Positions 1 through 54,924 of a stretch of DNA of 64,000 nt are shown piece by piece; within the stretch, counting starts at the first letter, position 1, and each line of letters begins with the position of its first letter. A model generated the notes under the pieces. That model searched no databases. It saw only the letters and a program-made list of their open reading frames with translations, and was not told where the DNA came from. The stretch is taken from contig OZ024744.1 in assembly GCA_964016885.1 (NCBI GenBank), positions 98,270,001 through 98,334,000 on the forward strand, written 5' to 3'. This DNA comes from Eledone cirrhosa. Lineage: Eukaryota. A program made the position numbers and the translations under genes.

Positions 1-3000
1 CGTGGGCTGGGTGCTTTTTGTTGTGACACCTACATAACCACTTTACAGTGTGGGCTGCGTGCTTTTTGCCATGTCTTTTATATGTCCACTTTACAGTGTG
101 GGCTGAGTGCTTTTTGTCATGTCTTTTATATGTCCACTTTACAGTTTGGGTTGTTGCTTTTTGCCTTGTCTTTTACACGTCCACTTTACAGTGTGGGCTG
201 GGTGCTTTTTGCCTTGTCTTTTATACGTCCACTTTACAGTGTGGGCTGGGTGCTTTTTGTTGTGTCTTTTACACATCCACTTTACAGTGTGGGCTGCGTC
301 CTTTTTGCCATGTCTTTTACATGTCCACTTTACAGTGTGCGCAGGGTGCTTTTTGGCGTGTCTTTTACACATCAACTTTACAGTGTGCGCTGGGTGCTTT
401 TTGTCGTGTCTTTTACATGTCCACTTTACAATGTGGGCTGGGTGCTTTTTGTCGTGTCTTTTACATGTCCACTTTACAGCATGGCTGGGTGCTTTTGTCA
501 TGTCTTTTATATGTCCACTTTACAGTGTGGGCTGGGTGCTTTTGTCATGTCTTTTATATGTCCACTTTACAGTGTGGGCTGGGTGCTTTTGTCATGTCTT
601 TTACATGTCAACTTTACAGTGTGGGCTGGGTGCTTTTGTCATGTCTTTTACATGTCCACTTTACAGTGTGGGCTGGGTGCTTTTGTCATGTCTTTTATAT
701 GTCCACTTTACAGTGTGGGCTGGGTGCTTTTTGTCGTGTCTTTTATATGTCCACTTTACAGCGTAGCTGGGTGCTTTTGTCATGTCTTTTATATGTCCAC
801 TTTCAGTGTGGGCTGGGTGCTTTTGTCATGTCTTTTACATGTCAACTTTACAGTGTGGGCTGGGTGCTTTTGTCATGTCTTTTACATATCCACTTTACAG
901 TGTGGGCTGGGTGCTTTTGTCAAGTCTTTTACATGTCCACTTTACAGCGTGGCTGGGTGCTTTTGTCGTGTCTTTTACATGTCCACTTTACAGTGTGGGC
1001 TGTGTGCTTTTTGCCTTGTCTTTTACATGTCCACTTTACAGTGTGGGCTGTGTACTTTTTGCCTTGTCTTTTACATGTCCACTTTACAGTATGGGCTGCG
1101 TGCTTTTTGCCATATCTTCTATATGTCCACTTTACAGTGTGGGCTGTGTGCTTTTTGTCATGTCTTTTACACGTCCACTTTACAGTGTGGGCTGGGTGCT
1201 TTTTGTCATGTCTTTTACACGTCCACTTTATAGTGTGAGCTGGGTGTCTTTTGTCGTGTCTTTTACACATCCACTTTACAGTGTGGGCTGGGTGTTTTTT
1301 GCCGTGTCCTTTACACGTCCACTTTACAGTGTGGGCTGGGTGCTTTTTGCCGTGTCTTTTATATGTCCCTTTACAGTGTGGGCTGAGTGCTTTTTGCCAT
1401 GTCTTTTATATGTCCACTTTACAGTTTGGGCTTGTTGCTTTTTGCCTTGTCTTTTACACGTCCACTTTACAGTGTGGGCTGGGTGCTTTTTGTTGTGTCT
1501 TTTACACATCAACTTTACAGTGTGGGCTGGGTGCTTCTGTCATGTCTTTTACATGTCCACTTTACAGTGTGGGCTGGGTGCTTTTGTCATGTCTTTTACA
1601 TGTCCACTTTACAGTGTGGGCTGGATGCTTTTGTCATGTCTTTTACATGTCCACTTTACAGTGTGGCTGGATGTCTTGTCATGTCTTTTACACATCCACT
1701 TTACAGTGTGGGCTGGGTGCTTTTTGCCTTGTCTTTTACACGTCCACTTTACAGTGTGGGCTGGGTGCTTTTGTCGTGTCTTTTACACATCCACTTTACA
1801 GTGTGGGCTGGGTGCTTTTGTCGTGTCTTTTACACATCCACTTTACAGTGTGGGCTGCGTGCTTTTTGTTGTGTCTTTTACACATCCACTTTACAGTGTG
1901 GGCTGGGTGCTTTTTGCCTTGTCTTTTACACGTCCACTTTACAGTGTGGGCTGGGTGCTTTTTGTTGTGTCTTTTACACATCCACTTTACAGTGTGGGCT
2001 GGGTGCTTTTTGTTGTGTCTTTTACACATCCACTTTACAGTGTGGGCTGGGTGCTTTTTGCCGTGTCTTTTACATGTCCACTTTACAGTGTGGCTGGATG
2101 TCTTGTCATGTCTTTTACACGTCCACTTTACAGTTTGGGCTTGTTGCTTTTTGCCTTGTCTTTTACACGTCCACTTTACAGTGTGGGCTGGGTGCTTTTT
2201 GTTGTGTCTTTTACACATCCACTTTACAGTGTGGGCTGCGTCCTTTTTGCCCTGTCTTTTACATGTCCACTTTACAGTGTGCGCTGGGTGCTTTTTGGCG
2301 TGTTTTTTACAAATCAACTTTACAGTGTGGGCTGGGTGCTTTTTGTCGTGTCTTTTACATGTCCACTTTACAGTGTGGGCTGGGTGCTTTTTGTCGTGTC
2401 TTTTACATGTCCACTTTACAGCATGGCTGGGTGCTTTTGTCATGTCTTTTATATGTCCACTTTACAGTGTGGGCTGGGTGCTTTTGTCATGTCTTTTATA
2501 TGTCAACTTTACAGTGTGGGCTGGGTGCTTTTGTCATGTCTTTTACATGTCCACTTTACAGTGTGGGCTGGGTGCTTTTGTCATGTCTTTTATATGTCCA
2601 CTTTACAGTGTGGGCTGGGTGCTTTTTGTCGTGTCTTTTATATGTCCACTTTACAGCGTAGCTGGGTGCTTTTGTCATGTCTTTTATATGTCCACTTTCA
2701 GTGTGGGCTGGGTGCTTTTGTCATGTCTTTTACATGTCAACTTTACAGTGTGGGCTGGGTGCTTTTGTCATGTCTTTCACATATCCACTTTACAGTGTGG
2801 GCTGGGTGCTTTTGTCAAGTCTTTTACATGTCCACTTTACAGCGTGGCTGGGTGCTTTTGTCGTGTCTTTTACATGTCCACTTTACAGTGTGGGCTGTGT
2901 GCTTTTTGCCTTGTCTTTTACATGTCCACTTTACAGTGTGGGCTGTGTACTTTTTGCCTTGTCTTTTACATGTCCACTTTACAGTATGGGCTGCGTGCTT

Positions 3001-6000
3001 TTTGCCATATCTTCTATATGTCCACTTTACAGTGTGGGCTGTGTGCTTTTTGTCATGTCTTTTACACGTCCACTTTACAGTGTGGGCTGGGTGCTTTTTG
3101 TCATGTCTTTTACACGTCCACTTTACAGTGTGAGCTGGGTGTCTTTTGTCGTGTCTTTTACACATCCACTTTACAGTGTGGGCTGGGTGTTTCTTGCCGT
3201 GTCCTTTACACGTCCACTTCACAGTGTGGGCTGAGTGCTTTTTGCCATATCTTCTATATGTCCACTTTACAGTGTGGGCTGTGTGCTTTTTGTCATGTCT
3301 TTTACACGTCCACTTTACAGTGTGGGCTGGGTGCTTTTTGTCATGTCTTTTACACGTCCACTTTACAGTGTGGGCTGAGTGCTTTTTGTCGTGTCTTTTA
3401 CATGTCCACTTTACAGTGTGGGCTCTGTGCTTTTTGTCATGTCTTTTACACGTTCCACTTTACAGTGTGGGCTGGGTGTTTTTCGTCGTGTCTTTTACAT
3501 GTCCACTTTACAGTGTGTCTGGGTGTTTTTTGTCGTGTCTTTTGTATGTCCACTTTACAGTGTGGGCTGGGTGTTTTTCGTCGTGTCTTTTACATGTCCA
3601 CTTTACAGTGTGGGCTGGGTGTTTTTTGTCGTGTCCTTTACATGTCCACTTTACAGTGTGGGCTGGGTGTTTTTTGTCGCGTCTTTTACACGTCCACTTT
3701 ACAGTGTGGGCTGGGTGCTTTTTGTTGTGTCTTTTACACATCAACTTTACAGTGTGGGCTGGGTGCTTTTGTCATGTCTTTTACATGTCCACTTTACAGT
3801 GTGGGCTGGGTGCTTTTGTCATGTCTTTTACATGTCCACTTTACAGTGTGGGCTGGATGCTTTTGTCATGTCTTTTACATGTCCACTTTACAGTGTGGCT
3901 GGATGTCTTGTCATGTCTTTTACACATCCACTTTACAGTGTGGGCTGGGTGCTTTTTGCCTTGTCTTTTACACGTCCACTTTACAGTGTGGGCTGGGTGC
4001 TTTTGTCGTGTCTTTTACACATCCACTTTACAGTGTGGGCTGGGTGCTTTTGTCGTGTCTTTTACACATCCACTTTACAGTGTCGGCTGGGTGCTTTTGT
4101 CGTGTCTTTTACACATCCACTTTACAGTGTGGGCTGGGTGCTTTTTGTTGTGTCTTTTACACATCCACTTTACAGTGTGGGCTGGGTGCTTTTTGCCTTG
4201 TCTTTTACACGTCCACTTTACAGTGTGGGCTGGGTGCTTTTTGTTGTGTCTTTTACACATCCACTTTACAGTGTGGGCTGGGTGCTTTTTGTTGTGTCTT
4301 TTACACATCCACTTTACAGTGTGGGCTGGGTGCTTTTTGCCGTGTCTTTTACATGTCCACTTTACAGTGTGGCTGGATGTCTTGTCATGTCTTTTACACG
4401 TCCACTTTACAGTTTGGGCTTGTTGCTTTTTGCCTTGTCTTTTACACGTCCACTTTACAGTGTGGGCTGGGTGCTTTTTGTTGTGTCTTTTACATGTCCA
4501 CTTTACAGTGTGCGCTGGGTGATTTTTGGCGTGTTTTTTACAAATCAACTTTACAGTGTGGGCTGGGTGCTTTTTGTCGTGTCTTTTACATGTCCACTTT
4601 ACAGTGTGGGCTGGGTGCTTTTTGTCGTGTCTTTTACATGTCCACTTTACAGCATGGCTGGGTGCTTTTGTCATGTCTTTTATATGTCCACTTTACAGTG
4701 TGGGCTGGGTGCTTTTGTCATGTCTTTTATATGTCAACTTTACAGTGTGGGCTGGGTGCTTTTGTCATGTCTTTTACATGTCCACTTTACAGTGTGGGCT
4801 GGGTGCTTTTGTCATGTCTTTTACATGTCCACTTTACAGTGTGGGCTGGGTGCTTTTTGTGTGTCTTTTATATGTCCACTTTACAGCGTAGCTGGGTGCT
4901 TTTGTCATGTCTTTTATATGTCCACTTTACAGTGTGGGCTGGGTGCTTTTGCAAGTCTTTTACATGTCCACTTAACAGCGTGGCTGGGTGCTTTTGTCGT
5001 GTCTTTTACACGTCAACTTTACAGTGTGGGCTGTGTGCTTTTTGCCTTGTCTTTTACATGTCCACTTTACAGTATGGGCTGCGTGCTTTTTGCCATATCT
5101 TTTATATGTCCACTTTACAGTGTGGGCTGTGTGCTTTTTGTCGTGTCTTTTACACGTCCACTTTACAGTGTGGGCTGGCTTTTTTTCCAGGTCTTTTATA
5201 TGTCCACTTTACAGTGTGGCTGGGTGCTTTTTGCTGTGTCTTTTACATGTCCACTTTACAGTGTGGGCTGGGTGCTTTTTGCCAGGTCTTTTATATGTCA
5301 ACTTTACAGTGTGGGCTGGGTGCTTTTGTCATGTCTTTTACACATCCACTTTACAGTGTGGGCTGCGTGCTTTTGTCATGTCTTTTACATGTCCACTTTA
5401 CAGTGTGGGCTGGGTGCTTTTGTCATGTCTTTTACACGTCCACTTTACAGTGTGGGCTGGGTGCTTTTTGTTGTGTCTTTTACACATCCACTTTACAGTG
5501 TGGGCTGGGTGCTTTTTGCCATGTCTTTTATATGTCCACTTTACAGCGTAGCTGGGTGCTTTTGTCATGTCTTTTATATGTCCACTTTACAGTGTGGGCT
5601 GTGTGCTTTTTGCCTTGTCTTTTACATGTCCACTTTACAGTGTGGGCTGTGTGCTTTTTGCCTTGTCTTTTACATGTCCACTTTACAGTATGGGCTGCGT
5701 GCTTTTTGCCATATCTTTTATATGTCCACTTTACAGTGTGGGCTGCGTGCTTTTTGTCGTGTCTTTTACACGTCCACTTTACAGTGTGGGCTGGGTGCTT
5801 TTTACCAGGTCTTTTATATGTCCACTTTACAGTGTGGGCTATGTGCTTTTTGTCATGTCTTTTACACGTTCCACCTTACAGTGTGGGCTGGGTGTTTTTC
5901 GTCGTGTCTTTTACATGTCCACTTTACAGTGTGGCTGGTTGCTTTTGTCATGTCTTTTACATGTCCACTTTACAGTGTGGGCTGGGTGCTTTTTGCCATG

Positions 6001-9000
6001 TCTTTTATATGTCCCCTTTACAGTGTGGGCTGGGTGCTTTTGTCATGTCTTTTATATGTCCACTTTACAGTGTGTCTGGGTGCTTTTGTCATGTCTTTTA
6101 TATGTCCACTTTACAGTGTGGGCTGGGTGCTTTTGTCATGTCTTTTACATGTCCACTTTACAGTGTGGGCTGAGTGCTTTTTGTCGTGTCTTTTACATGT
6201 CCACTTTACAGTTTGGGCTCTGTGCTTTTTGTCATGTCTTTTACACGTTCCACTTTACAGTGTGGGCTGGGTGTTTTTCGTCGTGTCTTTTACATGTCCA
6301 CTTTACAGTGTGTCTGGGTGTTTTTTGTCGTGTCTTTTGTATGTCCACTTTACAGTGTGGGCTGGGTGTTTTTCGTCGTGTCTTTTACATGTCCACTTTA
6401 CAGTGTGGGCTGGGTGTTTTTTGTCGTGTCCTTTACATGTCCACTTTACAGTGTGGGCTGGGTGTTTTTTGTCGCGTCTTTTACACGTCCACTTTACAGT
6501 GTGGGCTGCGTCCTTTTTGCCATGTCTTTTACATGTCCACTTTACAGTATGGGCTGGGTGCTTTTGTCAAGTCTTTTACATGTCCACTTTACAGCGTGGC
6601 TGGGTGCTTTTGTCGTGTCTTTTACACGTCCACTTTACAGTGTGGGCTGTGTCCTTTTTGCCTTGTCTTTTACATGTCCACTTTACAGTATGGGCTGCGT
6701 GCTTTTTGCCATATCTTTTATATGTCCACTTTACAGTGTGGGCTGTGTGCTTTTTGTCGTGTCTTTTACACGTCCACTTTACAGTGTGGGCTGGGTTTTT
6801 TTCCAGGTCTTTTATATGTCCACTTTACAGTGTGGGCTGGGTGTTTTTTGTCGCGTATTTTACACGTCCACTTTACAGTGTGGGCTGGGTGCTTTTTGTC
6901 ATGTCTTTTACACGTCCACTTTACAGTGTGGGCTGGGTGCTTTTGTCATGTCTTTTACATGTCCACTTTACAGTGTGGGCTGGGTGCTTTTGTCATGTCT
7001 TTTACACGTCCACTTTACAGTGTGGGCTGGGTGCTTTTTGTTGTGTCTTTTACACATCCACTTTACAGTGTGGGCTGCGTGCATTTTGCCGTGTCTTTTA
7101 CATGTCCACTTTACAGTGTGGGCTGGGTGCTTTTTGTCATGTCTTTTACACATCCACTTTACAGTTTGGGCTTGTTGCTTTTTGCCTTGTCTTTTACACG
7201 TCCACTTTACAGTGTCGGCTGGGTGCTTTTTGTTGTGTCTTTTACACATCCACTTTACAGTGTGGGCTGCGTCCTTTTTGCCATGTCTTTTACATGTCCA
7301 CTTTACAGCGTGGCTGGGTGCTTTTTGCCGTGTCTTTTACATGTCCACTTTACAGTGTGGGCTGGGTGCTTTTTGTTGTGTCTTTTACACATCCACTTTA
7401 CAGTGTGGGCTGCGTCCTTTTTGCCATGTCTTTTCCATGTCCACTTTACAGTGTGCGCTGGGTGCTTTTTGGCGTGTCTTTTACACATCAACTTTACAAT
7501 GTGGGCTGGGTGCTTTTTGTTGTGTCTTTTACATGTCCACTTTACAGCATGGCTGGGTGCTTTTGTCATGTCTTTTATATGTCCACTTTACAGTGTGGGC
7601 TGGGTGCTTTTGTCATGTCTTTTATATGTCCACTTTACAGTGTGGGCTGGGTGCTTTTGTCATGTCTTTTACATGTCAACTTTACAGTGTGGGCTGGGTG
7701 CTTTTGTCATGTCTTTTACATGTCCACTTTACAGTGTGGGCTGTGTGCTTTTGTCATGTCTTTTATATGTCCACTTTACAGTGTGGGCTGGGTGCTTTTT
7801 GTCGTGTCTTTTATATGTCCACTTTACAGCGTAGCTGGGTGCTTTTGTCATGTCTTTTATATGTCCACTTTACAGTGTGGGCTGGATGCTTTTGTCAAGT
7901 CTTTTACATGTCCACTTTACAGCGTGGCTGGGTGCTTTTGACGTGTCTTTTACACGTCCACTTTACAGTGTGGGCTGTGTGCTTTTTGCCTTGTCTTTTA
8001 CATGTCCACTTTACAGTGTGGGCTGGGTGCTTTTTGCCTTGTCTTTTACATGTCCACTTTACAGTATGGGCTGCGTGCTTTTTGCCAAATCTTTTATATG
8101 TCCACTTTATAGTGTGGGCTGTGTGCTTTTTGTCGTGTCTTTTACACGTCCACTTTACAGTGTAGGCTGGGTGCTTTTTACCAGGTCTTTTATATGTCCA
8201 CTTTACAGTGTGGGCTATGTGCTTTTTATCATGTCTTTTACACGTTCCACTTTACAGTGTGGGCTGGGTGTTTTTCGTCGTGTCTTTTACATGTCCACTT
8301 TACAGTGTAGCTGGATGCTTTTGTCATGTCTTTTACACGTCCACTTTACAGTGCGGGCTGGGTGCTTTTTGCCATGTCTTTTATATGTCCACTTTACAGT
8401 GTGGGCTCTGTGCTTTTTGTCATGTCTTTTACACGTTCCACTTTACAGTGTGGGCTGGGTGTTTTTCGTTGTGTCTTTTACATGTCCACTTTACAGTGTG
8501 TCTGAGTGTTTTTTGTCGTGTCTTTTGTATGTCCACTCTACAGTGTGGGCTGGGTGTTTTTCGTCGTGTCTTTTACATGTCCACTTTACAGTGTGTCTGG
8601 GTGTTTTTCGTCGTGTCTTTTACATGTCCACTTTACAGTGTGGGCTGGGTGTTTTTTGTCGCATCTTTTACACGTCCACTTTACAGTGTGGGCTGGGTGC
8701 TTTTTGTCATGTCTTTTACACGTCCACTTTACAGTGTGAGCTGGGTGTCTTTTGTCGTGTCTTTTACACATCCACTTTACAGTGTGGGCTGGGTGTTTTT
8801 TGCCGTGTCCTTTACACGTCCACTTTACAGTGTGGGCTGGGTGCTTTTTGCCGTGTCTTTTACACGTCCACTTTACAGTGTGGGCTGGGTGCTTTTTGCC
8901 GTGTCTTTTACAAGTCCACTTTACAGTGTGGGCTGGGTGCTTTTTGTCATGTCTTTTACACATCCAGTGTGGGCTGCGTGCTTTTTGTCATGTCTTTTAC

Positions 9001-12000
9001 ACGTCCACTTTACAGTGTGGGCTGGGTGCTTTTTGCCGTGTCTTTTACAAGTCCACTTTACAGTGTGGGCTGGGTGCTTTTTGTCATGTCTTTTACACAT
9101 CCAGTGTGGGCTGCGTGCTTTTTGCCGTGTCTTTTACACGTCCACTTTACAGTGTGGGCTGGGTGCTTTTTGCTGTGTCTTTTACACATCCACTTTACAG
9201 TGTGGGCTGCGTGCTTTTTGCCATGTCTTTTATATGTCCCTTTACAGTGTGGCCTGAGTGCTTTTTGCCATGTCTTTTATATGTCCACTTTACAGTGTGG
9301 GCTGGGTGCTTTTTGTCATGTCTTTTACATGTCCACTTTACAGTTTGGGCTTGTTGCTTTTTGCCTTGTCTTTTACATGTCCACTTTACAGTTTGAGCTT
9401 GTTGCTTTTTGCCTTGTCTTTTACACGTCCACTTTACAGTTTGGGCTTGTTGCTTTTTGCCTTGTCTTTTACACGTCCACTTTACAGTGTCGGCTGGGTG
9501 CTTTTTGTTGTGTCTTTTACACATTCACTTTACAGTGTGGGCTGCGTCCTTTTTGCCATGTCTTTTACATGTCCACTTTACAGTGTGCGCTGGGTGCTTT
9601 TTGGCGTGTCTTTTACACATCAACTTTACAGTGTGGGCTGGGTGCTTTTTGTCGTGTCTTTTACATGTCCACTTTACAGTGTGGGCTGGGTGTTTTTTGT
9701 TGTGTCTTTTACATGTCCACTTTACAGTGTGTCTGGGTGTTTTTTGTCGTGTCTTTTGTATTTCCACTTTACAGTGTGGGCTGGGTGTTTTTTGTCGCGT
9801 CTTTTACACGTCCACTTTACAGTGTGGGCTGGGTGTTTTTTGTCATGTCTTTTACACATCCACTTTACAGTGTGGGCTGGGTGTTTTTTGTCGCGTCTTT
9901 TACACGTCCACTTTACAGTGTGGGCTGGGTGCTTTTTGTCGTGTCTTTTACACGTCCACTTTACAGTGTGGGCTGGGTGCTTTTTGTCATGTCTTTTACA
10001 CGTCCACTTTACAGTGTGAGCTGGGTGTCTTTTGTCGTGTCTTTTACATATCCACTTTACAGTGTGGGCTGGGTGTTTTTTGCCGTGTCCTTTACACGTC
10101 CACTTTACAGTGTGGGCTGGGTGCTTTTTGCCTTGTCTTTTACATGTCCACTTTACAGTATGGGCTGCGTGCTTTTTGCCATATCTTTTATATGTCCACT
10201 TTACAGTGTGGGCTGTGTGCTTTTTGTCGTGTCTTTTACACGTCCACTTTACAGTGTGGGCTGGGTGCTTTTTGTCATGTCTTTTACACGTCCACTTTAC
10301 AGTGTGAGCTGGGTGTCTTTTGTCGTGTCTTTTACATATCCACTTTACAGTGTGGGCTGGGTGTTTTTTGCCGTGTCCTTTACACGTCCACTTTACAGTG
10401 TGGGCTGGGTGCTTTTTGCCGTGTCTTTTACACGTCCACTTTACAGTGTGGGCTGGGTGCTTTTTGTCATGTCTTTTACACATCCAGTGTGGGCTGCGTG
10501 CTTTTTGTCATGTCTTTTACACGTCCACTTTATAGTGTGGGCTGGGTTTTTTTCCAGGTCTTTTATATGTCCACTTTACAGTGTGGCTGGGTGCTTTTTG
10601 CCAGGTCTTTTATATGTCAACTTTACAGTGTGGTTTGGGTGCTTTTGTCATGTCTTTTACATGTCCACTTTACAGTGTGGGCTGGGTGCTTTTGTCATGT
10701 CTTTTACACGTCCACTTTACAGTGTGGGCTGTGTACTTTTTGTCGTGTCTTTTACATGTCCACTTTACAGTGTGGGCTGGGTGCTTTTTGCCATGTCTTT
10801 TATATGTCCACTTTACAGTGTGGGCTGGGTGCTTTTTGTCATGTCTTTTACATGTCCACTTTACAGTGTGGGCTGGGTGCTTTTTGCCTTGTCTTTTACA
10901 CATCCACTTTACAGTGTGAGCTGGGTGTCTTTTGTCGTGTCTTTTACACGTCCACTTTACAGTGTGGGCTTGTTGCTTTACAGTGTGCGCTGGGTGCTTT
11001 TTGTTGTGTCTTTTACACATCCACTTTACAGTGTGGGCTGCATCCTTTTTGCCATGTCTTTTACATGTCCACTTTACAGTGTGCGCTGGGTGCTTTTTGT
11101 TGTGTCTTTTACACATACACTTTACAGCATGGGCTGGGTGCTTTTTGGCGTGTCTTTTACACATCAACTTTACAGTGTGGGCTGCGTCCTTTTTGCCCTG
11201 TCTTTTACATGTCCACTTTACAGTGTGGGCTGGGTGTCTTTTGTCGTGTCTTTTACATGTCCACTTTACAGCATGGCTGGGTGCTTTTGTCATGTCTTTT
11301 ATATGTCCCTTTACAGTGTGGGCTGAGTGCTTTTTGCCATGTCTTTTATATGTCCCTTTACAGTGTGGGCTGAGTGCTTTTTGCCATGTCTTTTATATGT
11401 CCCCTTTACAGTGTGGGCTGAGTGCTTTTTGTCGTGTCTTTTACATGTCCACTTTACAGTGTGGGCTCTGTGCTTTTTGTCATGTCTTTTACACGTTCCA
11501 CTTTACAGTGTGGGCTGGGTGTTTTTCGTCGTGTCTTTTACATGTCCACTTTACAGTGTGTCTGGGTGTTTTTTGTCGTGTCTTTTGTATGTCCACTTTA
11601 CAGTGTGGGCTGGGTGTTTTTCGTCGTGTCTTTTACATGTCCACTTTACAGTGTGGGCTGGGTGTTTTTTGTCGTGTCCTTTACATGTCCACTTTACAGT
11701 GTGGGCTGGGTGTTTTTTGTCGCGTCTTTTACACGTCCACTTTACAGTGTGGGCTGCGTCCTTTTTGCCATGTCTTTTACATGTCCACTTTACAGTATGG
11801 GCTGGGTGCTTTTGTCAAGTCTTTTACATGTCCACTTTACAGCGTGGCTGGGTGCTTTTGTCGTGTCTTTTACACGTCCACTTTACAGTGTGGGCTGTGT
11901 CCTTTTTGCCTTGTCTTTTACATGTCCACTTTACAGTATGGGCTGCGTGCTTTTTGCCATATCTTTTATATGTCCACTTTACAGTGTGGGCTGTGTGCTT

Positions 12001-15000
12001 TTTGTCGTGTCTTTTACACGTCCACTTTACAGTGTGGGCTGGGTTTTTTTCCAGGTCTTTTATATGTCCACTTTACAGTGTGGGCTGGGTGTTTTTTGTC
12101 GCGTATTTTACACGTCCACTTTACAGTGTGGGCTGGGTGCTTTTTGTCATGTCTTTTACACGTCCACTTTACAGTGTGGGCTGGGTGCTTTTGTCATGTC
12201 TTTTACATGTCCACTTTACAGTGTGGGCTGGGTGCTTTTGTCATGTCTTTTACACGTCCACTTTACAGTGTGGGCTGGGTGCTTTTTGTTGTGTCTTTTA
12301 CACATCCACTTTACAGTGTGGGCTGCGTGCATTTTGCCGTGTCTTTTACATGTCCACTTTACAGTGTGGGCTGGGTGCTTTTTGTCATGTTTTTTACACA
12401 TCCACTTTACAGTTTGGGCTTGTTGCTTTTTGCCTTGTCTTTTACACGTCCACTTTACAGTGTCGGCTGGGTGCTTTTTGTTGTGTCTTTTACACATCCA
12501 CTTTACAGTGTGGGCTGCGTCCTTTTTGCCATGTCTTTTACATGTCCACTTTACAGCGTGGCTGGGTGCTTTTTGCCGTGTCTTTTACATGTCCACTTTA
12601 CAGTGTGGGCTGGGTGCTTTTTGTTGTGTCTTTTACACATCCACTTTACAGTGTGGGCTGCGTCCTTTTTGCCATGTCTTTTCCATGTCCACTTTACAGT
12701 GTGCGCTGGGTGCTTTTTGGCGTGTCTTTTACACATCAACTTTACAATGTGGGCTGGGTGCTTTTTGTTGTGTCTTTTACATGTCCACTTTACAGCATGG
12801 CTGGGTGCTTTTGTCATGTCTTTTATATGTCCACTTTACAGTGTGGGCTGGGTGCTTTTGTCATGTCTTTTATATGTCCACTTTACAGTGTGGGCTGGGT
12901 GCTTTTGTCATGTCTTTTACATGTCAACTTTACAGTGTGGGCTGGGTGCTTTTGTCATGTCTTTTACATGTCCACTTTACAGTGTGGGCTGTGTGCTTTT
13001 GTCATGTCTTTTATATGTCCACTTTACAGTGTGGGCTGGGTGCTTTTTGTCGTGTCTTTTATATGTCCACTTTACAGCGTAGCTGGGTGCTTTTGTCATG
13101 TCTTTTATATGTCCACTTTACAGTGTGGGCTGGATGCTTTTGTCAAGTCTTTTACATGTCCACTTTACAGCGTGGCTGGGTGCTTTTGACGTGTCTTTTA
13201 CACGTCCACTTTACAGTGTGGGCTGTGTGCTTTTTGCCTTGTCTTTTACATGTCCACTTTACAGTGTGGGCTGGGTGCTTTTTGCCTTGTCTTTTACATG
13301 TCCACTTTACAGTATGGGCTGCGTGCTTTTTGCCAAATCTTTTATATGTCCACTTTATAGTGTGGGCTGTGTGCTTTTTGTCGTGTCTTTTACACGTCCA
13401 CTTTACAGTGTAGGCTGGGTGCTTTTTACCAGGTCTTTTATATGTCCACTTTACAGTGTGGGCTATGTGCTTTTTATCATGTCTTTTACACGTTCCACTT
13501 TACAGTGTGGGCTGGGTGTTTTTCGTCGTGTCTTTTACATGTCCACTTTACAGTGTGGCTCGATGCTTTTGTCATGTCTTTTACACGTCCACTTTACAGT
13601 GCGGGCTGGGTGCTTTTTGCCATGTCTTTTATATGTCCACTTTACAGTGTGGGCTCTGTGCTTTTTGTCATGTCTTTTACACGTTCCACTTTACAGTGTG
13701 GGCTGGGTGTTTTTCGTTGTGTCTTTTACATGTCCACTTTACAGTGTGTCTGAGTGTTTTTTGTCGTGTCTTTTGTATGTCCACTCTACAGTGTGGGCTG
13801 GGTGTTTTTCGTCGTGTCTTTTACATGTCCACTTTACAGTGTGTCTGGGTGTTTTTCGTCGTGTCTTTTACATGTCCACTTTACAGTGTGGGCTGGGTGT
13901 TTTTTGTCGCATCTTTTACACGTCCACTTTACAGTGTGGGCTGGGTGCTTTTTGTCATGTCTTTTACACGTCCACTTTAAAGTGTGAGCTGGGTGTCTTT
14001 TGTCGTGTCTTTTACACATCCACTTTACAGTGTGGGCTGGGTGTTTTTTGCCGTGTCCTTTACACGTCCACTTTACAGTGTGGGCTGGGTGCTTTTTGCC
14101 GTGTCTTTTACACGTCCACTTTACAGTGTGGGCTGGGTGCTTTTTGCCGTGTCTTTTACAAGTCCACTTTACAGTGTGGGCTGGGTGCTTTTTGTCATGT
14201 CTTTTACACATCCAGTGTGGGCTGCGTGCTTTTTGTCATGTCTTTTACACGTCCACTTTACAGTGTGGGCTGGGTGCTTTTTGCCGTGTCTTTTACAAGT
14301 CCACTTTACAGTGTGGGCTGGGTGCTTTTTGTCATGTCTTTTACACATCCAGTGTGGGCTGCGTGCTTTTTGCCGTGTCTTTTACACGTCCACTTTACAG
14401 TGTGGGCTGGGTGCTTTTTGCCGTGTCTTTTACACATCCACTTTACAGTGTGGGCTGCGTGCTTTTTGCCATGTCTTTTATATGTCCCTTTACAGTGTGG
14501 CCTGAGTGCTTTTTGCCATGTCTTTTATATGTCCACTTTACAGTGTGGGCTGGGTGCTTTTTGTCATGTCTTTTACATGTCCACTTTACAGTTTGGGCTT
14601 GTTGCTTTTTGCCTTGTCTTTTACATGTCCACTTTACAGTTTGAGCTTGTTGCTTTTTGCCTTGTCTTTTACACGTCCACTTTACAGTTTGGGCTTGTTG
14701 CTTTTTGCCTTGTCTTTTACACGTCCACTTTACAGTGTCGGCTGGGTGCTTTTTGTTGTGTCTTTTACACATTCACTTTACAGTGTGGGCTGCGTCCTTT
14801 TTGCCATGTCTTTTACATGTCCACTTTACAGTGTGCGCTGGGTGCTTTTTGGCGTGTCTTTTACACATCAACTTTACAGTGTGGGCTGGGTGCTTTTTGT
14901 CGTGTCTTTTACATGTCCACTTTACAGTGTGGGCTGGGTGCTTTTTGCCTTGTCTTTTACACATCCACTTTACAGTGTGAGCTGGGTGTCTTTTGTCGTG

Positions 15001-18000
15001 TCTTTTACACGTCCACTTTACAGTGTGGGCTTGTTGCTTTACAGTGTGCGCTGGGTGCTTTTTGTTGTGTCTTTTACACATCCACTTTACAGTGTGGGCT
15101 GCATCCTTTTTGCCATGTCTTTTACATGTCCACTTTACAGTGTGCGCTGGGTGCTTTTTGTTGTGTCTTTTACACATCCACTTTACAGCATGGGCTGGGT
15201 GCTTTTTGGCGTGTCTTTTACACATCAACTTTACAGTGTGGGCTGCGTCCTTTTTGCCCTGTCTTTTACATGTCCACTTTACAGTGTGGGCTGGGTGTCT
15301 TTTGTCGTGTCTTTTACATGTCCACTTTACAGCATGGCTGGGTGCTTTTGTCATGTCTTTTATATGTCCCTTTACAGTGTGGGCTGAGTGCTTTTTGCCA
15401 TGTCTTTTATATGTCCCTTTACAGTGTGGGCTGAGTGCTTTTTGCCATGTCTTTTATATGTCCCCTTTACAGTGTGGGCTGAGTGCTTTTTGTCGTGTCT
15501 TTTACATGTCCACTTTACAGTGTGGGCTCTGTGCTTTTTGTCATGTCTTTTACACGTTCCACTTTACAGTGTGGGCTGGGTGTTTTTCGTCGTGTCTTTT
15601 ACATGTCCACTTTACAGTGTGTCTGGGTGTTTTTTGTCGTGTCTTTTGTATGTCCACTTTACAGTGTGGGCTGGGTGTTTTTCGTCGTGTCTTTTACATG
15701 TCCACTTTACAGTGTGGGCTGGGTGTTTTTTGTCGTGTCCTTTACATGTCCACTTTACAGTGTGGGCTGGGTGTTTTTTGTCGCGTCTTTTACACGTCCA
15801 CTTTACAGTGTGGGCTGCGTCCTTTTTGCCATGTCTTTTACATGTCCACTTTACAGTATGGGCTGGGTGCTTTTGTCAAGTCTTTTACATGTCCACTTTA
15901 CAGCGTGGCTGGGTGCTTTTGTCGTGTCTTTTACACGTCCACTTTACAGTGTGGGCTGTGTCCTTTTTGCCTTGTCTTTTACATGTCCACTTTACAGTAT
16001 GGGCTGCGTGCTTTTTGCCATATCTTTTATATGTCCACTTTACAGTGTGGGCTGTGTGCTTTTTGTCGTGTCTTTTACACGTCCACTTTACAGTGTGGGC
16101 TGGGTTTTTTTCCAGGTCTTTTATATGTCCACTTTACAGTGTGGGCTGGGTGTTTTTTGTCGCGTATTTTACACGTCCACTTTACAGTGTGGGCTGGGTG
16201 CTTTTTGTCATGTCTTTTACACGTCCACTTTACAGTGTGGGCTGGGTGCTTTTGTCATGTCTTTTACATGTCCACTTTACAGTGTGGGCTGGGTGCTTTT
16301 GTCATGTCTTTTACACGTCCACTTTACAGTGTGGGCTGGGTGCTTTTTGTTGTGTCTTTTATACATCCACTTTACAGTGTGGGCTGCGTGCATTTTGCCG
16401 TGTCTTTTACATGTCCACTTTACAGTGTGGGCTGGGTGCTTTTTGTCATGTCTTTTACACATCCACTTTACAGTTTGGGCTTGTTGCTTTTTGCCTTGTC
16501 TTTTACACGTCCACTTTACAGTGTCGGCTGGGTGCTTTTTGTTGTGTCTTTTACACATCCACTTTACAGTGTGGGCTGCGTCCTTTTTGCCATGTCTTTT
16601 ACATGTCCACTTTACAGCGTGGCTGGGTGCTTTTTGCCGTGTCTTTTACATGTCCACTTTACAGTGTGGGCTGGGTGCTTTTTGTTGTGTCTTTTACACA
16701 TCCACTTTACAGTGTGGGCTGCGTCCTTTTTGCCATGTCTTTTCCATGTCCACTTTACAGTGTGCGCTGGGTGCTTTTTGGCGTGTCTTTTACACATCAA
16801 CTTTACAATGTGGGCTGGGTGCTTTTTGTTGTGTCTTTTACATGTCCACTTTACAGCATGGCTGGGTGCTTTTGTCATGTCTTTTATATGTCCACTTTAC
16901 AGTGTGGGCTGGGTGCTTTTGTCATGTCTTTTATATGTCCACTTTACAGTGTGGGCTGGGTGCTTTTGTCATGTCTTTTACATGTCAACTTTACAGTGTG
17001 GGCTGGGTGCTTTTGTCATGTCTTTTACATGTCCACTTTACAGTGTGGGCTGTGTGCTTTTGTCATGTCTTTTATATGTCCACTTTACAGTGTGGGCTGG
17101 GTGCTTTTTGTCGTGTCTTTTATATGTCCACTTTACAGCGTAGCTGGGTGCTTTTGTCATGTCTTTTATATGTCCACTTTACAGTGTGGGCTGGATGCTT
17201 TTGTCAAGTCTTTTACATGTCCACTTTACAGCGTGGCTGGGTGCTTTTGACGTGTCTTTTACACGTCCACTTTACAGTGTGGGCTGTGTGCTTTTTGCCT
17301 TGTGTTTTACATGTCCACTTTACAGTGTGGGCTGGGTGCTTTTTGCCTTGTCTTTTACATGTCCACTTTACAGTATGGGCTGCGTGCTTTTTGCCAAATC
17401 TTTTATATGTCCACTTTATAGTGTGGGCTGTGTGCTTTTTGTCGTGTCTTTTACACGTCCACTTTACAGTGTAGGCTGGGTGCTTTTTACCAGGTCTTTT
17501 ATATGTCCACTTTACAGTGTGGGCTATGTGCTTTTTATCATGTCTTTTACACGTTCCACTTTACAGTGTGGGCTGGGTGTTTTTCATCGTGTCTTTTACA
17601 TGTCCACTTTACAGTGTGGCTGGATGCTTTTGTCATGTCTTTTACACGTCCACTTTACAGTGCGGGCTGGGTGCTTTTTGCCATGTCTTTTATATGTCCA
17701 CTTTACAGTGTGGGCTCTGTGCTTTTTGTCATGTCTTTTACACGTTCCACTTTACAGTGTGGGCTGGGTGTTTTTCGTTGTGTCTTTTACATGTCCACTT
17801 TACAGTGTGTCTGAGTGTTTTTTGTCGTGTCTTTTGTATGTCCACTCTACAGTGTGGGCTGGGTGTTTTTCGTCGTGTCTTTTACATGTCCACTTTACAG
17901 TGTGTCTGGGTGTTTTTCGTCGTGTCTTTTACATGTCCACTTTACAGTGTGGGCTGGGTGTTTTTTGTCGCATCTTTTACACGTCCACTTTACAGTGTGG

Positions 18001-21000
18001 GCTGGGTGCTTTTTGTCATGTCTTTTACACGTCCACTTTAAAGTGTGAGCTGGGTGTCTTTTGTCGTGTCTTTTACACATCCACTTTACAGTGTGGGCTG
18101 GGTGTTTTTTGCCGTGTCCTTTACACGTCCACTTTACAGTGTGGGCTGGGTGCTTTTTGCCGTGTCTTTTACACGTCCACTTTACAGTGTGGGCTGGGTG
18201 CTTTTTGCCGTGTCTTTTACAAGTCCACTTTACAGTGTGGGCTGGGTGCTTTTTGTCATGTCTTTTACACATCCAGTGTGGGCTGCGTGCTTTTTGTCAT
18301 GTCTTTTACACGTCCACTTTACAGTGTGGGCTGGGTGCTTTTTGCCGTGTCTTTTACAAGTCCACTTTACAGTGTGGGCTGGGTGCTTTTTGTCATGTCT
18401 TTTACACATCCAGTGTGGGCTGCGTGCTTTTTGCCGTGTCTTTTACACGTCCACTTTACAGTGTGGGCTGGGTGCTTTTTGCCGTGTCTTTTACACATCC
18501 ACTTTACAGTGTGGGCTGCGTGCTTTTTGCCATGTCTTTTATATGTCCCTTTACAGTGTGGCCTGAGTGCTTTTTGCCATGTCTTTTATATGTCCACTTT
18601 ACAGTGTGGGCTGGGTGCTTTTTGTCATGTCTTTTACATGTCCACTTTACAGTTTGGGCTTGTTGCTTTTTGCCTTGTCTTTTACATGTCCACTTTACAG
18701 TTTGAGCTTGTTGCTTTTTGCCTTGTCTTTTACACGTCCACTTTACAGTTTGGGCTTGTTGCTTTTTGCCTTGTCTTTTACACGTCCACTTTACAGTGTC
18801 GGCTGGGTGCTTTTTGTTGTGTCTTTTACACATTCACTTTACAGTGTGGGCTGCGTCCTTTTTGCCATGTCTTTTACATGTCCACTTTACAGTGTGCGCT
18901 GGGTGCTTTTTGGCGTGTCTTTTACACATCAACTTTACAGTGTGGGCTGGGTGCTTTTTGTCGTGTCTTTTACATGTCCACTTTACAGTGTGGGCTGGGT
19001 GTTTTTTGTTGTGTCTTTTACATGTCCACTTTACAGTGTGTCTGGGTGTTTTTTGTCGTGTCTTTTGTATGTCCACTTTACAGTGTGGGCTGGGTGTTTT
19101 TTGTCGCGTCTTTTACACGTCCACTTTACAGTGTGGGCTGGGTGTTTTTTGTCATGTCTTTTACACATCCACTTTACAGTGTGGGCCGGGTGTTTTTTGT
19201 CGCGTCTTTTACACGTCCACTTTACAGTGTGGGCTGGGTGCTTTTTGTCGTGTCTTTTACACGTCCACTTTACAGTGTGGGCTGGGTGCTTTTTGTCATG
19301 TCTTTTACACGTCCACTTTACAGTGTGAGCTGGGTGTCTTTTGTCGTGTCTTTTACATATCCACTTTACAGTGTGGGCTGGGTGTTTTTTGCCGTGTCCT
19401 TTACACGTCCACTTTACAGTGTGGGCTGGGTGCTTTTTGCCTTGTCTTTTACATGTCCACTTTACAGTATGGGCTGCGTGCTTTTTGCCATATCTTTTAT
19501 ATGTCCACTTTACAGTGTGGGCTGTGTGCTTTTTGTCGTGTCTTTTACACGTCCACTTTACAGTGTGGGCTGGGTGCTTTTTGTCATGTCTTTTACACGT
19601 CCACTTTACAGTGTGAGCTGGGTGTCTTTTGTCGTGTCTTTTACATATCCACTTTACAGTGTGGGCTGGGTGTTTTTTGCCGTGTCCTTTACACGTCCAC
19701 TTTACAGTGTGGGCTGGGTGCTTTTTGCCGTGTCTTTTACACGTCCACTTTACAGTGTGGGCTGGGTGCTTTTTGTCATGTCTTTTACACATCCAGTGTG
19801 GGCTGCGTGCTTTTTGTCATGTCTTTTACACGTCCACTTTATAGTGTGGGCTGGGTTTTTTTCCAGGTCTTTTATATGTCCACTTTACAGTGTGGCTGGG
19901 TGCTTTTTGCCAGGTCTTTTATATGTCAACTTTACAGTGTGGTTTGGGTGCTTTTGTCATGTCTTTTACATGTCCACTTTACAGTGTGGGCTGGGTGCTT
20001 TTGTCATGTCTTTTACACGTCCACTTTACAGTGTGGGCTGTGTGCTTTTTGTCGTGTCTTTTACATGTCCACTTTACAGTGTGGGCTGGGTGCTTTTTGC
20101 CATGTCTTTTATATGTCCACTTTACAGTGTGGGCTGGGTGCTTTTTGTCATGTCTTTTACATGTCCACTTTACAGTGTGGGCTGGGTGCTTTTTGCCTTG
20201 TCTTTTACACATCCACTTTACAGTGTGAGCTGGGTGTCTTTTGTCGTGTCTTTTACACGTCCACTTTACAGTGTGGGCTTGTTGCTTTACAGTGTGCGCT
20301 GGGTGCTTTTTGTTGTGTCTTTTACACATCCACTTTACAGTGCGGGCTGCATCCTTTTTGCCATGTCTTTTACATGTCCACTTTACAGTGTGCGCTGGGT
20401 GCTTTTTGTTGTGTCTTTTACACATCCACTTTACAGCATGGGCTGGGTGCTTTTTGGCGTGTCTTTTACACATCAACTTTACAGTGTGGGCTGCGTCCTT
20501 TTTGCCCTGTCTTTTACATGTCCACTTTACAGTGTGGGCTGGGTGTCTTTTGTCGTGTCTTTTACATGTCCACTTTACAGCATGGCTGGGTGCTTTTGTC
20601 ATGTCTTTTATATGTCCCTTTACAGTGTGGGCTGAGTGCTTTTTGCCATGTCTTTTATATGTCCCTTTACAGTGTGGGCTGAGTGCTTTTTGCCATGTCT
20701 TTTATATGTCAACTTTACAGTGTGGGCTGGGTGTTTTTGTCATGTCTTTTATATGTCCCCTTTACAGTGTGGGCTGGGTGCTTTTTGTCGTGTCTTTTAC
20801 ACGTCCACTTTACAGTGTGGGCTGGGTGCTTTTTGCCAGGTCTTTTATATGTCCACTTTACAGTGTGGCTGGGTGCTTTTTGCCGTGTCTTTTACATGTC
20901 CACTTTACAGTGTGGGCTGGGTGCTTTTTGCCATGTCTTTTATATGTCCACTTTACAGTGTGGGCTGGGTGCTTTTTGCCATGTCTTTTACACATCAACT

Positions 21001-22435
21001 TTACAGTGTGGGCTGGGTGCTTTTTGTCGTGTCTTTTACACATCAACTTTACAGTGTGGGCTGGGTGCTTTTTGTCGTGTCTTTTACATGTCCACTTTAC
21101 AGTGTGGGCTGGGTGCTTTTTGTCGTGTCTTTTACACATCAACTTTACAGTGTGGGCTGGGTGTTTTTTGTTGTGTCTTTTACATGTCCACTTTACAGTG
21201 TGGGCTGGGTGCTTTTGTCATGTCTTTTATATGTCCACTTTAGTGTGGGCTGGCTGCTTTTGTCATGTCTTTTACATGTCCACTTTACAGTGTGGGCTGG
21301 GTGCTTTTGTCATGTCTTTTACATGTCCACTTTACAGTGTGGGCTGGGTGCTTTTTGTCGTGTCTTTTATATGTCCACTTTTCAGCGTAGCCGGGTGCTT
21401 TTCTCATGTCTTTTACATGTCCACTTTACAGCGTGGCTGGGTGCTTTTGTCGTGTCTTTTACACATCCAATTTACAGTGTGGGCTGTGTGCTTTTTGCCT
21501 TGTCTTTTACATGTCCACTTTACAGTATGGGCTGCGTGCTTTTTGCCATATCTTTTATATGTCCTCTTTACAGTGTGGGCTGTGTGCTTTTTGTCGTGTC
21601 TTTTACACGTCCACTTTACAGTGTGGGCTGGGTGCTTTTTGCCAGGTCTTTTATATGTCCACTTTACAGTGTGGCTGGGTGCTTTTTGCCGTGTCTTTTA
21701 CATGTCCACTTTACAGTGTGGGCTGGGTGCTTTTTGCCATGTCTTTTACACGTTCCACTTTACAATGTGGGCTGGGTGTTTTTCGTCGTGTCTTTTACAT
21801 GTCCACTTTACAGTGTGGCTGGATGCTTTTGTCATGTCTTTTACATGTCCACTTTACAGTGTGGGCTGGGTGCTTTTTGCCATGTCTTTTATATGTCCAC
21901 TTTACAGTGTGGGCTGGGTGTTTTTCGTCGTGTCTTTTACATGTCCACTTTACAGTGTGTCTGGGTGTTTTTTGTCGTGTCTTTTGTATGTCCACTTTAC
22001 AGTGTGGGCTGGGTGTTTTTTGTCGTGTCTTTTACACTTCCACTTTAGAGTGTGGGCTGTGTGCTTTTTGTCATGTCTTTTACACGTTCCACTTTACAGT
22101 GTGGGCTGGGTGTTTTTCGTCGTGTCTTTTACATGTCCACTTTACAGTGTGGGCTGGGTGTTTTTTGTCGTGTCATTTGTATGTCCACTTTACAGTGTGG
22201 GCTGGGTGCTTTTTGCCGTGTCTTTTACATGTCCACTTTACAGTGTGGGCTGGGTGCTTTTTGCCGTGTCTTTTACATGTCCACTTTACAGTGTGGGCTG
22301 GGTGTTTTTTGTCGTGTCTTTTACACGTCCACTTTACAGTGTGGGCTGGGTGCTTTTTGCCGTGTCTTTTACACGTCCACTTTTCAGCGTGGTTGGGTGC
22401 TTTTTGCCGCGTCTTTTACACATCCAATGTGGGCT
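1..22435. repeat. Tandem satellite, 48-bp monomer (47-bp variants common), ~470 copies, with higher-order structure
   Basis: Consensus cagtgtgggctgggtgctttttgtcgtgtcttttacatgtccacttta repeats continuously to ~22435. Near-identical ORF translations recur at offsets 5248 and 4061 (6174/11422/15483) and 9309 (7850/17159). Confidence 0.98.
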
Positions 22436-23004
22436 AGAGGGTGGAGCATCTGTACATATCTACAGCTTGTGCTCGTGGGATGTCGGGTCTTCTGTATTAC
22501 TGCATATCATCAGAGATCCCAATCCTGTGTCATCACCTGTGAGAGGTGCAATTGGTCAAGGTCAGCTTTTATCACCTCATCCCAAGTCTTCCTGGCTCTC
22601 CTCACTCCAAGGCTTTCATCGCCTTTGAGTGCTTTGCACTTTTTTATGCAGCTGTCATGCTTCATACGCAACACATGTCCATACCAACACAATCTCCTCT
22701 CCTGCACACAACATTTGATTCCTCTTATGCCTAGTTTCTCTCTCAGTTCATTTATACTTCGCCATTCACATATATTATTATTACACATCCATCGGAGCAT
22801 GCAGGCTTCATTTCTTTCCAATCTATGCAAGTCTTCTGCACACAGCACCCAAGTCTCACTACCATAAATGCATGCATCATACAGTCTGCCTTTAATTTTG
22901 AGGGAAAAGCCTTTCGCAGCCAGCAGTGGTAGTAGCTCCCTAAACTTCCTCCATCCCGTTCTTACTCTGGCTACTGTACTTTCAGAACACCCACCTCTGC
23001 TGCT
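22436..23004 (-). mobile_element. 5'-truncated RTE-clade LINE (ORF C-terminus) whose 3' region runs directly into the 48-bp satellite
   Basis: Minus ORF 22510-22848 reads ...ERRLCWYGHVLRMK...RKTWDEVIKADL, a typical RTE C-terminus. Upstream bases encode RVRTGWRKFRELLPLL. The spacer 22436-22500 is colinear with 28105-28175 of another copy. Confidence 0.9.
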
Positions 23005-23257
23005 GATTCACTATAGATTTGATAATAGATCTATTAGAATGCAGCCATTAACATTTCATTGTGGTGGTTTATCTGAAATAAGGATGACACTTCAGTTTAA
23101 GAAGTTGAACTACTAGAATCAAATACCCAATATGCTTAGATTCATTTTGGTTGGGAAGATACCATAGCAATTAGGAACTTAGCCACATCAGGATATACCT
23201 AGCCTCAGCCACACCTTGGGCATGATGAGAGTGTCCTAAATAAAAATATCATCAAGT

Positions 23258-23647
23258 ACTCAATCCACACTGCAAAGTGGTCATGTAGGTGTCACAACAA
23301 AAGGTGCCCAGTCCACACTGTAAAGTGATCATGTTGGTGACACAACAAAAAGTGCCCACCCCTACAATGTAAAGTGGTCATGTTGGTGACAACAAAAAGT
23401 GCCCTGCTCACACTGTAAAGTGGTTATGTAGGTAATGACAAAAAGTGCACACGCCACACTGTAAAGAGGTTGTGTTGGTGTCATGATTAAAAGCACCCAG
23501 TCCACACTGTAAATGTGGTTGGCATAAGGAAGGGCATCTAGCCTTAGAAACCAAGCCAAAATTTGATCTGACATGTCTCACAATGGGAAACTCATCTAAC
23601 CCATGCTAACATGGAAAAATGGATGTTAAATAGGGATGATGATGATT
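23258..23647 (+). mobile_element. SINE/LINE 3' module with ~5-6 diverged 48-bp units and an RTE-type (GAT)n tail
   Basis: Repeated ccacactgtaaagtgg...aaaagtgccc units, then gtggttggcataaggaagggcatc, then ccatgctaacatggaaaaatggatgttaaa and gatgatgat. Confidence 0.85.
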
Positions 23648-27960: not shown

Positions 27961-28532
27961 GTCAGAGCACTCAAAGTCGATGGAAGCCTTGGAGTGGGAG
28001 ACCCAAGAAGACCTGGGATGAGGTGATAAAAGCTGACCTTGCTCAATTGCACCACTCAAGGCGATGACACAGGACCGTGACTTCTGACGACACGCACTGA
28101 TAGAGAGGACCCAACTTCCCACAGGTACAAACTGAAGCTGAAGCATATATACAGTATGTCCCCACCTCGTCCCACTGTAAAGTGGGCGTGGAGGTGTCAC
28201 AACAAAAAGCACCCAGTCCACACTGTATTGTGGCCATCTAGGTGTCACAGTAAAAAAAAATCACCCAGTACTCACTGTAAATGAGGTTGGTGTTAGGAAG
28301 GACATCACCCAGTCCATTCTGTAAATGAGGTTGGTGTTAGGAAGGGCATCACCCAGTCCACACTGTAAATGAGGTTGGTGTTAGGAAGGGCATCCAGCTG
28401 TAGAAATCAAGCCAAAACCAGTTCTGTATGAGCAAGACATGGTCACTTGACCTGGCATTTCCCACAACAGGAAAACCCATCTAAACCATGCTAGCGTGGA
28501 AGAATGGACGTAAAACGGTGATGATGATGATT
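27961..28532 (+). mobile_element. RTE 3' end plus module with two 48-bp units, three 44-bp units and a (GAT)n tail
   Basis: Encodes a decayed ...KTWDEVIKADLAQLH.... It is followed by cccactgtaaagtggg...aaaaagcacccagtccacactg, 3x cacccagtccacactgtaaatgaggttggtgttaggaagggcat, and the tail ccatgctagcgtggaagaatggacgtaaaacggtgatgatg. Confidence 0.88.
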
Positions 28533-43875: not shown

Positions 43876-43959
43876 TACATCTGTGTGTGTGTGTGTGTGT
43901 GTGTGTACACACATGCATGCATATATATGTAGCAGTAGGCTTCACATGTAGCAGCTGTG

Positions 43960-54920: not shown

Positions 54921-54924
54921 AGTC

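What the first reader, a model, noticed from the sequence alone, without database searches (positions are those of the whole stretch)
1..23004. A >22-kb satellite expanded inside the 3' region of one RTE retroelement copy
Seen: the array's right end runs without a gap into a minus-strand RTE ORF terminus. Two other copies of this RTE (27961-28532, 43960-44840) have the same ORF end followed by just two units of the same 48-bp motif (aaaaagcacccagcccacactgtaaagtgg), then a SINE-like segment and a (GAT)n tail; the 28-kb copy also shares the ~65-bp spacer. Inference: the satellite arose in place by amplification from 2 to ~470 units within the element. Progenitor, intermediate (23.3 kb, 5-6 units) and end state all sit in one window. 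TE-derived satellites are known in general, but I do not recognise this family.
Basis: partly seen in the sequence, partly recalled or inferred. Interest (0 to 1): 0.85.

Follow-up and report, generated by a model that had tools for sequence, protein, structure and literature searches.

The report
Giant satellites grown inside LINE tails
An 83-kb block of about 1,740 copies of a 48-letter repeat lies between the two ends of one jumping-gene copy, and a 600-kb block elsewhere has the same two ends, so these satellite DNAs likely grew in place from the one or two repeats that ordinary copies carry, a known route seen here at unusual size.

Summary
Observation confirmed and extended. The array runs 60.3 kb past the window: 82.7 kb, about 1,740 units, no gaps. 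One end joins a 5'-truncated LINE ORF. The other ends in the family's 3' tail and (GAT)n, with a candidate 8-bp target duplication (0 of 123 null junctions match, but this family rarely shows one). The 'SINE-like segment' is the LINE's own 3' UTR.

Genome-wide, 41 of 44 arrays of 10 or more units whose 3' end was read carry tail sequence there. One array of about 600 kb also has ORF and tail. Arrays are homogenised locus by locus (105 of 105 pairs), so they expanded independently after insertion.

Correction: the 23-, 28- and 44-kb window copies are cousins from other subfamilies. The array's own subfamily mostly carries one unit.

This is the route known from Ogre 3'-UTR satellites and reptile SINE satellites, here in an RTE-type LINE. 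The scan noted a diverged 48-bp array 4.8 Mb away. No function is shown, and length was not checked with long reads.

The parts
1..22420 (-). Right-hand 22.4 kb of an 82.7-kb array of the 48-bp A-type unit; the array continues 60,324 bp left of the window to G000:C28:98,209,676, followed by the element tail and (GAT)8 (about 98,209,508-98,209,675)
   Evidence: block structure
22421..22480 (-). Spacer between ORF end and first unit (start of the 3' UTR)
   Evidence: same spacer in other genomic copies
22481..23009 (-). 5'-truncated, degenerate 3' end of the LINE's single ORF (72% amino-acid identity to residues 857-1040 of a near-intact 1041-aa copy)
23007..23014 (-). Candidate target-site duplication ATAGTGAA, 5' copy; the second copy follows the (GAT)n tail 83.5 kb away. 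Three bases overlap the element start and two overlap the tail
   Evidence: 0 of 123 null junctions reach 8 nt; weak family control
23264..23647 (+). Separate 5'-truncated copy: 5.4 B-type units plus tail, no ORF match; a cousin, not an intermediate of this array
27963..28532 (+). Cousin copy: ORF end, spacer, two B-type units, 44-bp x3.1 duplication, B tail, (GAT)n
43951..44840 (+). Cousin copy: ORF end, no spacer, two units, B tail, (GAT)8
54922..55840 (+). 5'-truncated copy of the same 3' UTR with a 112-bp unit repeated 7.1 times, then tail

Best explanation
The 82.7-kb array lies between the ORF end and the 3' tail of an RTE-type LINE copy and likely grew there, long after insertion, from the single 48-bp unit of that copy's 3' UTR. 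Step 1 (inferred from anatomy): a 5'-truncated copy of about 0.8 kb inserted by target-primed reverse transcription. Step 2 (seed shown, event inferred): the UTR unit is bounded by a ~20-bp imperfect direct repeat and holds a short hairpin, so slippage or unequal exchange would duplicate it. Step 3 (pattern shown, mechanism inferred): repeated out-of-register recombination or template switching copied multi-kilobase blocks and built the array. The same likely happened independently at dozens of loci, up to about 600 kb. The product is most likely neutral satellite DNA.
For: Both element ends flank the array in the right order and orientation. Candidate 8-bp TSD, 0 of 123 null junctions. Of 29 other copies picked by ORF similarity, 24 have 1-3 units, 3 have 7, 14 and 29 or more, and 2 lost the 3' end. 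All 6 near-intact young copies share a two-unit UTR. 15 of 15 A-type arrays and 26 of 29 B-type arrays with the 3' end read have tail sequence there (18 full or nearly full, 8 partial). C28:46,966,160-47,565,840 (about 12,500 units) has ORF plus spacer at one end and the A tail at the other. C1:50,628,945-50,766,100 has a spacer fragment and a full tail. Between-array distance exceeds within-array distance in 105 of 105 pairs; a variant in 73-90% of units at nine sampled stretches of the 600-kb array is in 0.2% of units here. Blocks of 1.5-7 kb at 99.4-99.8% identity cover 83% of the array, longest exact duplicate 5,598 bp, whereas the ORF part is 84-91% identical to other copies. A duplicated locus has 54 units on C20 and 676 on C28.
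Against: The TSD has only three bases that are pure flank. In 19 short copies, 4 show 6 nt or more against 24 of 342 shuffled pairs, and 1 shows 8 nt against 14 of 342, so TSDs are rarely recognisable in this family; only 3 of 14 other arrays show 6 nt or more. The test that ORF and tail come from one subfamily was inconclusive: 3 A, 1 B, 1 other of 5 diagnostic columns, no body-tail correlation, tree unresolved. 3 of 29 B-type arrays have no tail. A diverged 48-bp array of 66 kb or more at C28:103.07-103.14 Mb has no tail at its 3' end. 10 of 15 A-type arrays start inside a unit with no ORF or spacer. Only about 113 of 600 kb of the largest array was read. The arrays were the best hits of two searches that scored 37 of 3,427 and 38 of 3,462 candidates, not a random sample.
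Confidence: 0.85

Rival explanations
1. The ORF end and the tail belong to two different copies, joined by ectopic recombination or gene conversion through their units; the array is a chimera.
For: Weak TSD control; body-tail concordance inconclusive; internal inversion in one other array, C28:101.5 Mb.
Against: 8-bp match at the exact junctions, 0 of 123 in the null; unit type and tail type are both A; one orientation over 82.7 kb; the same order repeats at the 600-kb and 137-kb arrays.
Confidence: 0.07
2. A pre-existing satellite was captured by the LINE, or multi-unit arrays were retrotransposed from a long-array master, so length was largely present at insertion.
For: 17 of 21 arrays of 10 or more units scored have no spacer or ORF 5' of the units; a 112-bp duplication recurs on another chromosome, so short duplications can likely travel through RNA; one tailless diverged array exists.
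Against: 20 of 33 bystander copies with 1-3 units also lack the spacer (Fisher p = 0.14), so truncation in the unit region is normal. Private variants run through each array. Reverse transcription starts at the tail and would have to cross 83 or 600 kb before reaching the ORF (established TPRT mechanism, recalled). Young intact copies have two units.
Confidence: 0.05
3. The anatomy is real but the assembly inflated or shuffled the array, so the near-identical blocks and the length are partly artefacts.
For: Exact duplicate of 5,598 bp and 83% coverage by near-identical blocks; no long-read run was available.
Against: 271 distinct unit sequences among 1,650; blocks have varied breakpoints and offsets of 3.7-54 kb; no N; short-read contigs match the ORF-flank junction 22977-23293 with no difference in two runs of one sample, possibly the source sample.
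Confidence: 0.1

Closest known systems
Satellites from tandem repeats in the 3' UTR of Ogre LTR retrotransposons (Lathyrus sativus FabTR families, pea PisTR-A; PMC7004042: abstract, one Results section and Discussion read)
   Same: Short arrays in a retrotransposon 3' UTR, dispersed with the element, occasionally expand in place to satellite length.
   Different: Host here is a non-LTR LINE. The seed in this subfamily is one unit with a short direct repeat. Both element ends are read on single loci of 83 and about 600 kb. Ogre expansions are mainly pericentromeric; position here is unknown.
SINE-derived satellites (sSat) of squamate reptiles (PMC10702118: abstract, snake section and Discussion read)
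   Same: Tandem units from part of a non-LTR retroposon, with the element terminus still attached; many loci; locus-specific subvariants.
   Different: sSat usually keep one terminus, reach about 1,000 units and are homogeneous between loci. Here the host is an autonomous LINE family, arrays reach about 12,500 units, and each locus has its own variant.
LINE 3'-end-derived satellites: cetacean common satellite (L1), chicken HinfI (CR1), Drosophila 18HT (HeT-A/TART) (as listed in review PMC9659126, passages and table seen; primary papers not read)
   Same: Monomer derives from the 3' region of a non-LTR retrotransposon.
   Different: In the passages seen these rest on monomer similarity; here the array is still inside the element and a range from 1 to about 12,500 units exists in one genome.
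RTE-2_OV of Octopus vulgaris (PMC9115989: passages and one section read)
   Same: Single ORF of about 1,100 aa with endonuclease, RT and a zinc-binding domain; microsatellite 3' end.
   Different: Its microsatellite starts at the ORF end; this family has about 300 bp of spacer, units and tail first, and a 1041-aa ORF. Sequences were not compared.

Membership tests
RTE-clade LINE | Single ORF with AP endonuclease and reverse transcriptase | tested here: met
   1041-aa ORF in a near-intact relative: Exo_endo_phos, RVT_1, PHD; window fragment 72% identical to its C-terminus
RTE-clade LINE | Short 3' UTR ending in a microsatellite tail; frequent 5' truncation | tested here: met
   (GAT)n tails and truncated copies
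RTE-clade LINE | RT phylogeny groups with named RTE elements | not testable with these tools
RTE-clade LINE | Target-site duplication | tested here: inconclusive
   8 nt here, 0 of 123 null; little excess in 19 control copies
Satellite DNA | Long head-to-tail array, locally homogenised | tested here: met
   82.7 kb, 87% matches; 105 of 105 pairs
Satellite DNA | Heterochromatic or centromeric location | not testable with these tools
   No chromatin or cytogenetic data
Ogre-type satellites born in a retrotransposon 3' UTR | Array at a fixed position and orientation downstream of the coding region, with a range of lengths | tested here: met
Ogre-type satellites born in a retrotransposon 3' UTR | Host is a Ty3/gypsy LTR element | tested here: not met
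   Host is an APE-RT LINE: it works like them but is not one
SINE-derived satellite | Unit or tail belongs to a tRNA-headed SINE | tested here: inconclusive
   The segment is the UTR of 6 of 6 near-intact LINEs; 86 of 121 core hits end in the LINE tail, and the 14 of the other 35 that were printed are internal duplications or truncated tails; no systematic search for a SINE head
RTE-2_OV | Microsatellite begins at the ORF end | tested here: not met
   PMC9115989 section

The most novel reading that the evidence does not exclude
The 48-bp unit is a working RNA hairpin of the LINE tail at which the element's reverse transcriptase pauses, slips and falls off. The LINE would then itself make and scatter satellite seeds, and chromosome position would decide which seeds grow to hundreds of kilobases, possibly as centromeric or heterochromatic blocks.
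Probability: 0.15. Interest if true: 0.72.

Novelty: new variant of a known kind. Interest (0 to 1): 0.45.

Why it matters
Birth of satellite DNA from a mobile element is usually inferred from monomer similarity. Here single loci keep both ends of the parent insertion around 83, about 137 and about 600 kb of array, and one genome holds a range from one unit to about 12,500. Many equivalent seeds at different chromosomal places, each datable by its own ORF and tail, are the natural experiment that PMC7004042 (Discussion) asks for: which genomic settings let an array grow. The route itself is established, and nothing here shows a function.

Tried and rejected
Rfam on window 21500-64000: no match. 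Pfam and NCBIfam on the window ORF fragment: none; the Atlas gave only endonuclease-RT-like or unnamed clusters. Short-read contigs could not give array length or an empty site; no long-read run and no RNA holder listed. ORF-versus-tail concordance and a tree of 30 copies were unresolved. Unit counts were noisy and were replaced, which can undercount degenerate units by one. Edit distances along the array carry a phase offset and are not used. A self-BLAST of the array returned nothing and was replaced by a diagonal scan. The idea that long arrays are enriched for 5' ends inside the units was not supported (p = 0.14). Whole-UTR folding is no more stable than shuffles (z -0.5 to -0.9). Ends not reached: C25:18.86-18.93 Mb (both), C25:24.46 Mb (3'), C1:399.6, C4:91.48, C28:101.44 and C28:103.07 Mb (5'). 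No genome-wide copy count was possible. Literature searches listed no description of this family; Repbase, Dfam, subscription journals and supplements were not seen, so it may be catalogued there.

Full report
Observation. Tandem Repeats Finder gives a 48-bp array at 2-22420 with 470.7 copies. On the minus strand it is preceded by a ~60-bp spacer and a degenerate ORF end up to about 23009. The window lies at G000:C28:98,270,001-98,334,000 of a 3.0-Gb assembly. That the animal is an octopus is my recollection from its repeats and genome size, echoed by earlier scan notes; no call names it.

The far end. Ten neighbouring stretches show that the array continues 60,324 bp to the left: 82,745 bp, 1740.5 units, no N, one orientation. 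It ends in a ~170-bp tail and (GAT)8, 89% identical to the tail of a one-unit copy. The 8-mer ATAGTGAA stands at both junctions, and 0 of 123 other 3' junctions match this 5' junction as well. Only three of the eight bases are pure flank. Among 19 short copies, 4 show 6 nt or more against 24 of 342 shuffled pairs (in three of them the 5' junction was the end of my reference). The TSD is therefore suggestive, not proof.

The element. Near-intact relatives exist. One has a 1041-aa ORF with AP endonuclease, RT and PHD domains. Six such copies are 95.7-99% identical at the 3' end and share a two-unit UTR and the B tail. The anatomy fits the RTE clade, but no named reference could be placed in a tree.

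The seed. Among 29 copies chosen only by ORF similarity (the best 29 after the window's own, of 40 scored from 11,556 candidates), unit counts are 0 (2 copies, 3' end lost), 1 (13), 2 (6), 3 (5), 7, 14 and 29 or more. There are at least two unit and tail types. The array is type A, and 10 of 12 tail-A copies have one unit between two imperfect ~20-bp direct repeats. The window copies at 23.3, 28 and 44 kb have B-type tails and other unit variants, so they are cousins, not stages of this array. Each unit can form a 7-bp hairpin: 79.9% of cells pair across 44 distinct units, against 13-62% for slid partners, with 19 double changes (0 of 500 shuffles). The structure was chosen from these sequences, and CpG decay can mimic some double changes, so this is weak support. 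The same UTR has also produced 44-, 61- and 112-bp periods in this window.

Other arrays. Two searches with array DNA gave 14 other A-type and 28 other B-type loci; three more B-type arrays came from the ORF search and the left flank. All 15 A-type arrays end in the A tail. Of 29 B-type arrays whose 3' end was read, 18 have a full or nearly full tail, 8 part of one and 3 none; for 2 more the 3' end was not reached. The largest, C28:46,966,160-47,565,840, has ORF plus spacer at one end and the tail at the other; about 113 of its 600 kb were read and all of it was array in one orientation. C1:50,628,945-50,766,100 starts in a spacer fragment and ends in a full tail, with about half read. Of the 15 A-type arrays, 4 have ORF or spacer attached, 1 is ambiguous and 10 begin inside a unit. 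Short bystander copies do so too (20 of 33, against 17 of 21 long ones; p = 0.14).

How it grew. Twelve sampled units per array (fewer where the array is short) show between-array distance above the mean within-array distance in 105 of 105 A-type pairs. A variant present in 73-90% of units across the 600-kb array is in 0.2% of units here. Each array therefore amplified local mutations after insertion. In this array, blocks of 1.5-7 kb at 99.4-99.8% identity cover 83%, at offsets of 3.7-54 kb without a regular higher-order period, while the ORF part is only 84-91% identical to other copies. Growth by repeated out-of-register copying long after insertion is the simplest reading; whether by unequal crossover, template switching or circle re-integration cannot be told. 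One locus is present twice with the same tail and 3' flank at 92-96% identity, with 54 units on C20 and 676 on C28.

Limits. ORF-tail concordance was inconclusive. Short-read contigs confirm only the ORF-flank junction and may come from the source sample. Array length is unverified by long reads. The loci are best hits, not a random sample.

Known kinds. Satellites from 3'-UTR repeats of Ogre elements (PMC7004042), SINE-derived satellites of reptiles (PMC10702118; lead from note e1-9515023) and LINE-3'-derived satellites listed in a review (PMC9659126, passages) establish the route; PMC12628747 (passages) reviews the mechanisms. An Octopus vulgaris repeat annotation (PMC13282606; first part and term search) does not use the word satellite in its main text. 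RTE-2_OV differs in its 3' end (PMC9115989). PMC4758252 and PMC5786205 (passages) added nothing on this tail. Eight searches listed no description of this family; repeat databases and supplements were not seen.

Verdict. It is a new variant of a known kind. Interest 0.45.

Noticed in passing
G000:C28:46,966,160-47,565,840 (L111-L123, L084-L092, L101-L102): About 600-kb array of the same unit with ORF at one end and tail at the other; a different large tandem array follows at about 47.73-48.0 Mb (L107-L109), so the region may be heterochromatic.
   Followed up: partly
L147 (C20:10.02 Mb) and L144/L157-L159 (C28:126.65-126.69 Mb): Two loci share the tail and at least 1.2 kb of 3' flank at 92-96% identity but have 54 and 676 units; only the C20 copy has the ORF. 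Segmental duplication or 3' transduction followed by expansion.
   Followed up: partly
L183-L188: Young subfamily with long ORFs (about 970-1,120 aa open frames; APE, RT, PHD in the one scanned), 95.7-99% identical, with a fixed two-unit 3' UTR; possibly recently active.
   Followed up: partly
window 28260-28394, 54952-55742, 59863-60243, 62263-62744: Tandem duplications with periods 44, 112, 61 and 139 bp that contain parts of the same UTR; the 112-bp form recurs in L137.
   Followed up: partly
L038 (about 68.0-64.7 kb left of the window): A 70-unit B-type array with spacer remnants and tail, on the opposite strand, about 4 kb from the tail of the 82.7-kb array.
   Followed up: yes
L149 and L171: Arrays whose 5' side holds an inverted piece of the element (tail in L149, spacer in L171), like twin-priming inversions.
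   Followed up: no
L209-L211 (C28:101.50-101.51 Mb): About 3.7-kb internal inversion inside a B-type array of 73 kb or more.
   Followed up: no
window 51513-51887: A third copy of the LINE ORF end with no units or tail.
   Followed up: yes
window 25230-26610; L039 region about 72.7-70.7 kb left of the window: A 64-bp x21.7 minisatellite (96% matches) and a 157-bp x12.4 array (99%) whose unit looks like LINE coding sequence.
   Followed up: no
L131-L135, L202 (C28:103.07-103.14 Mb): Diverged 48-bp array of 66 kb or more without a tail at its 3' end, followed by a 24-bp x195 array.
   Followed up: partly
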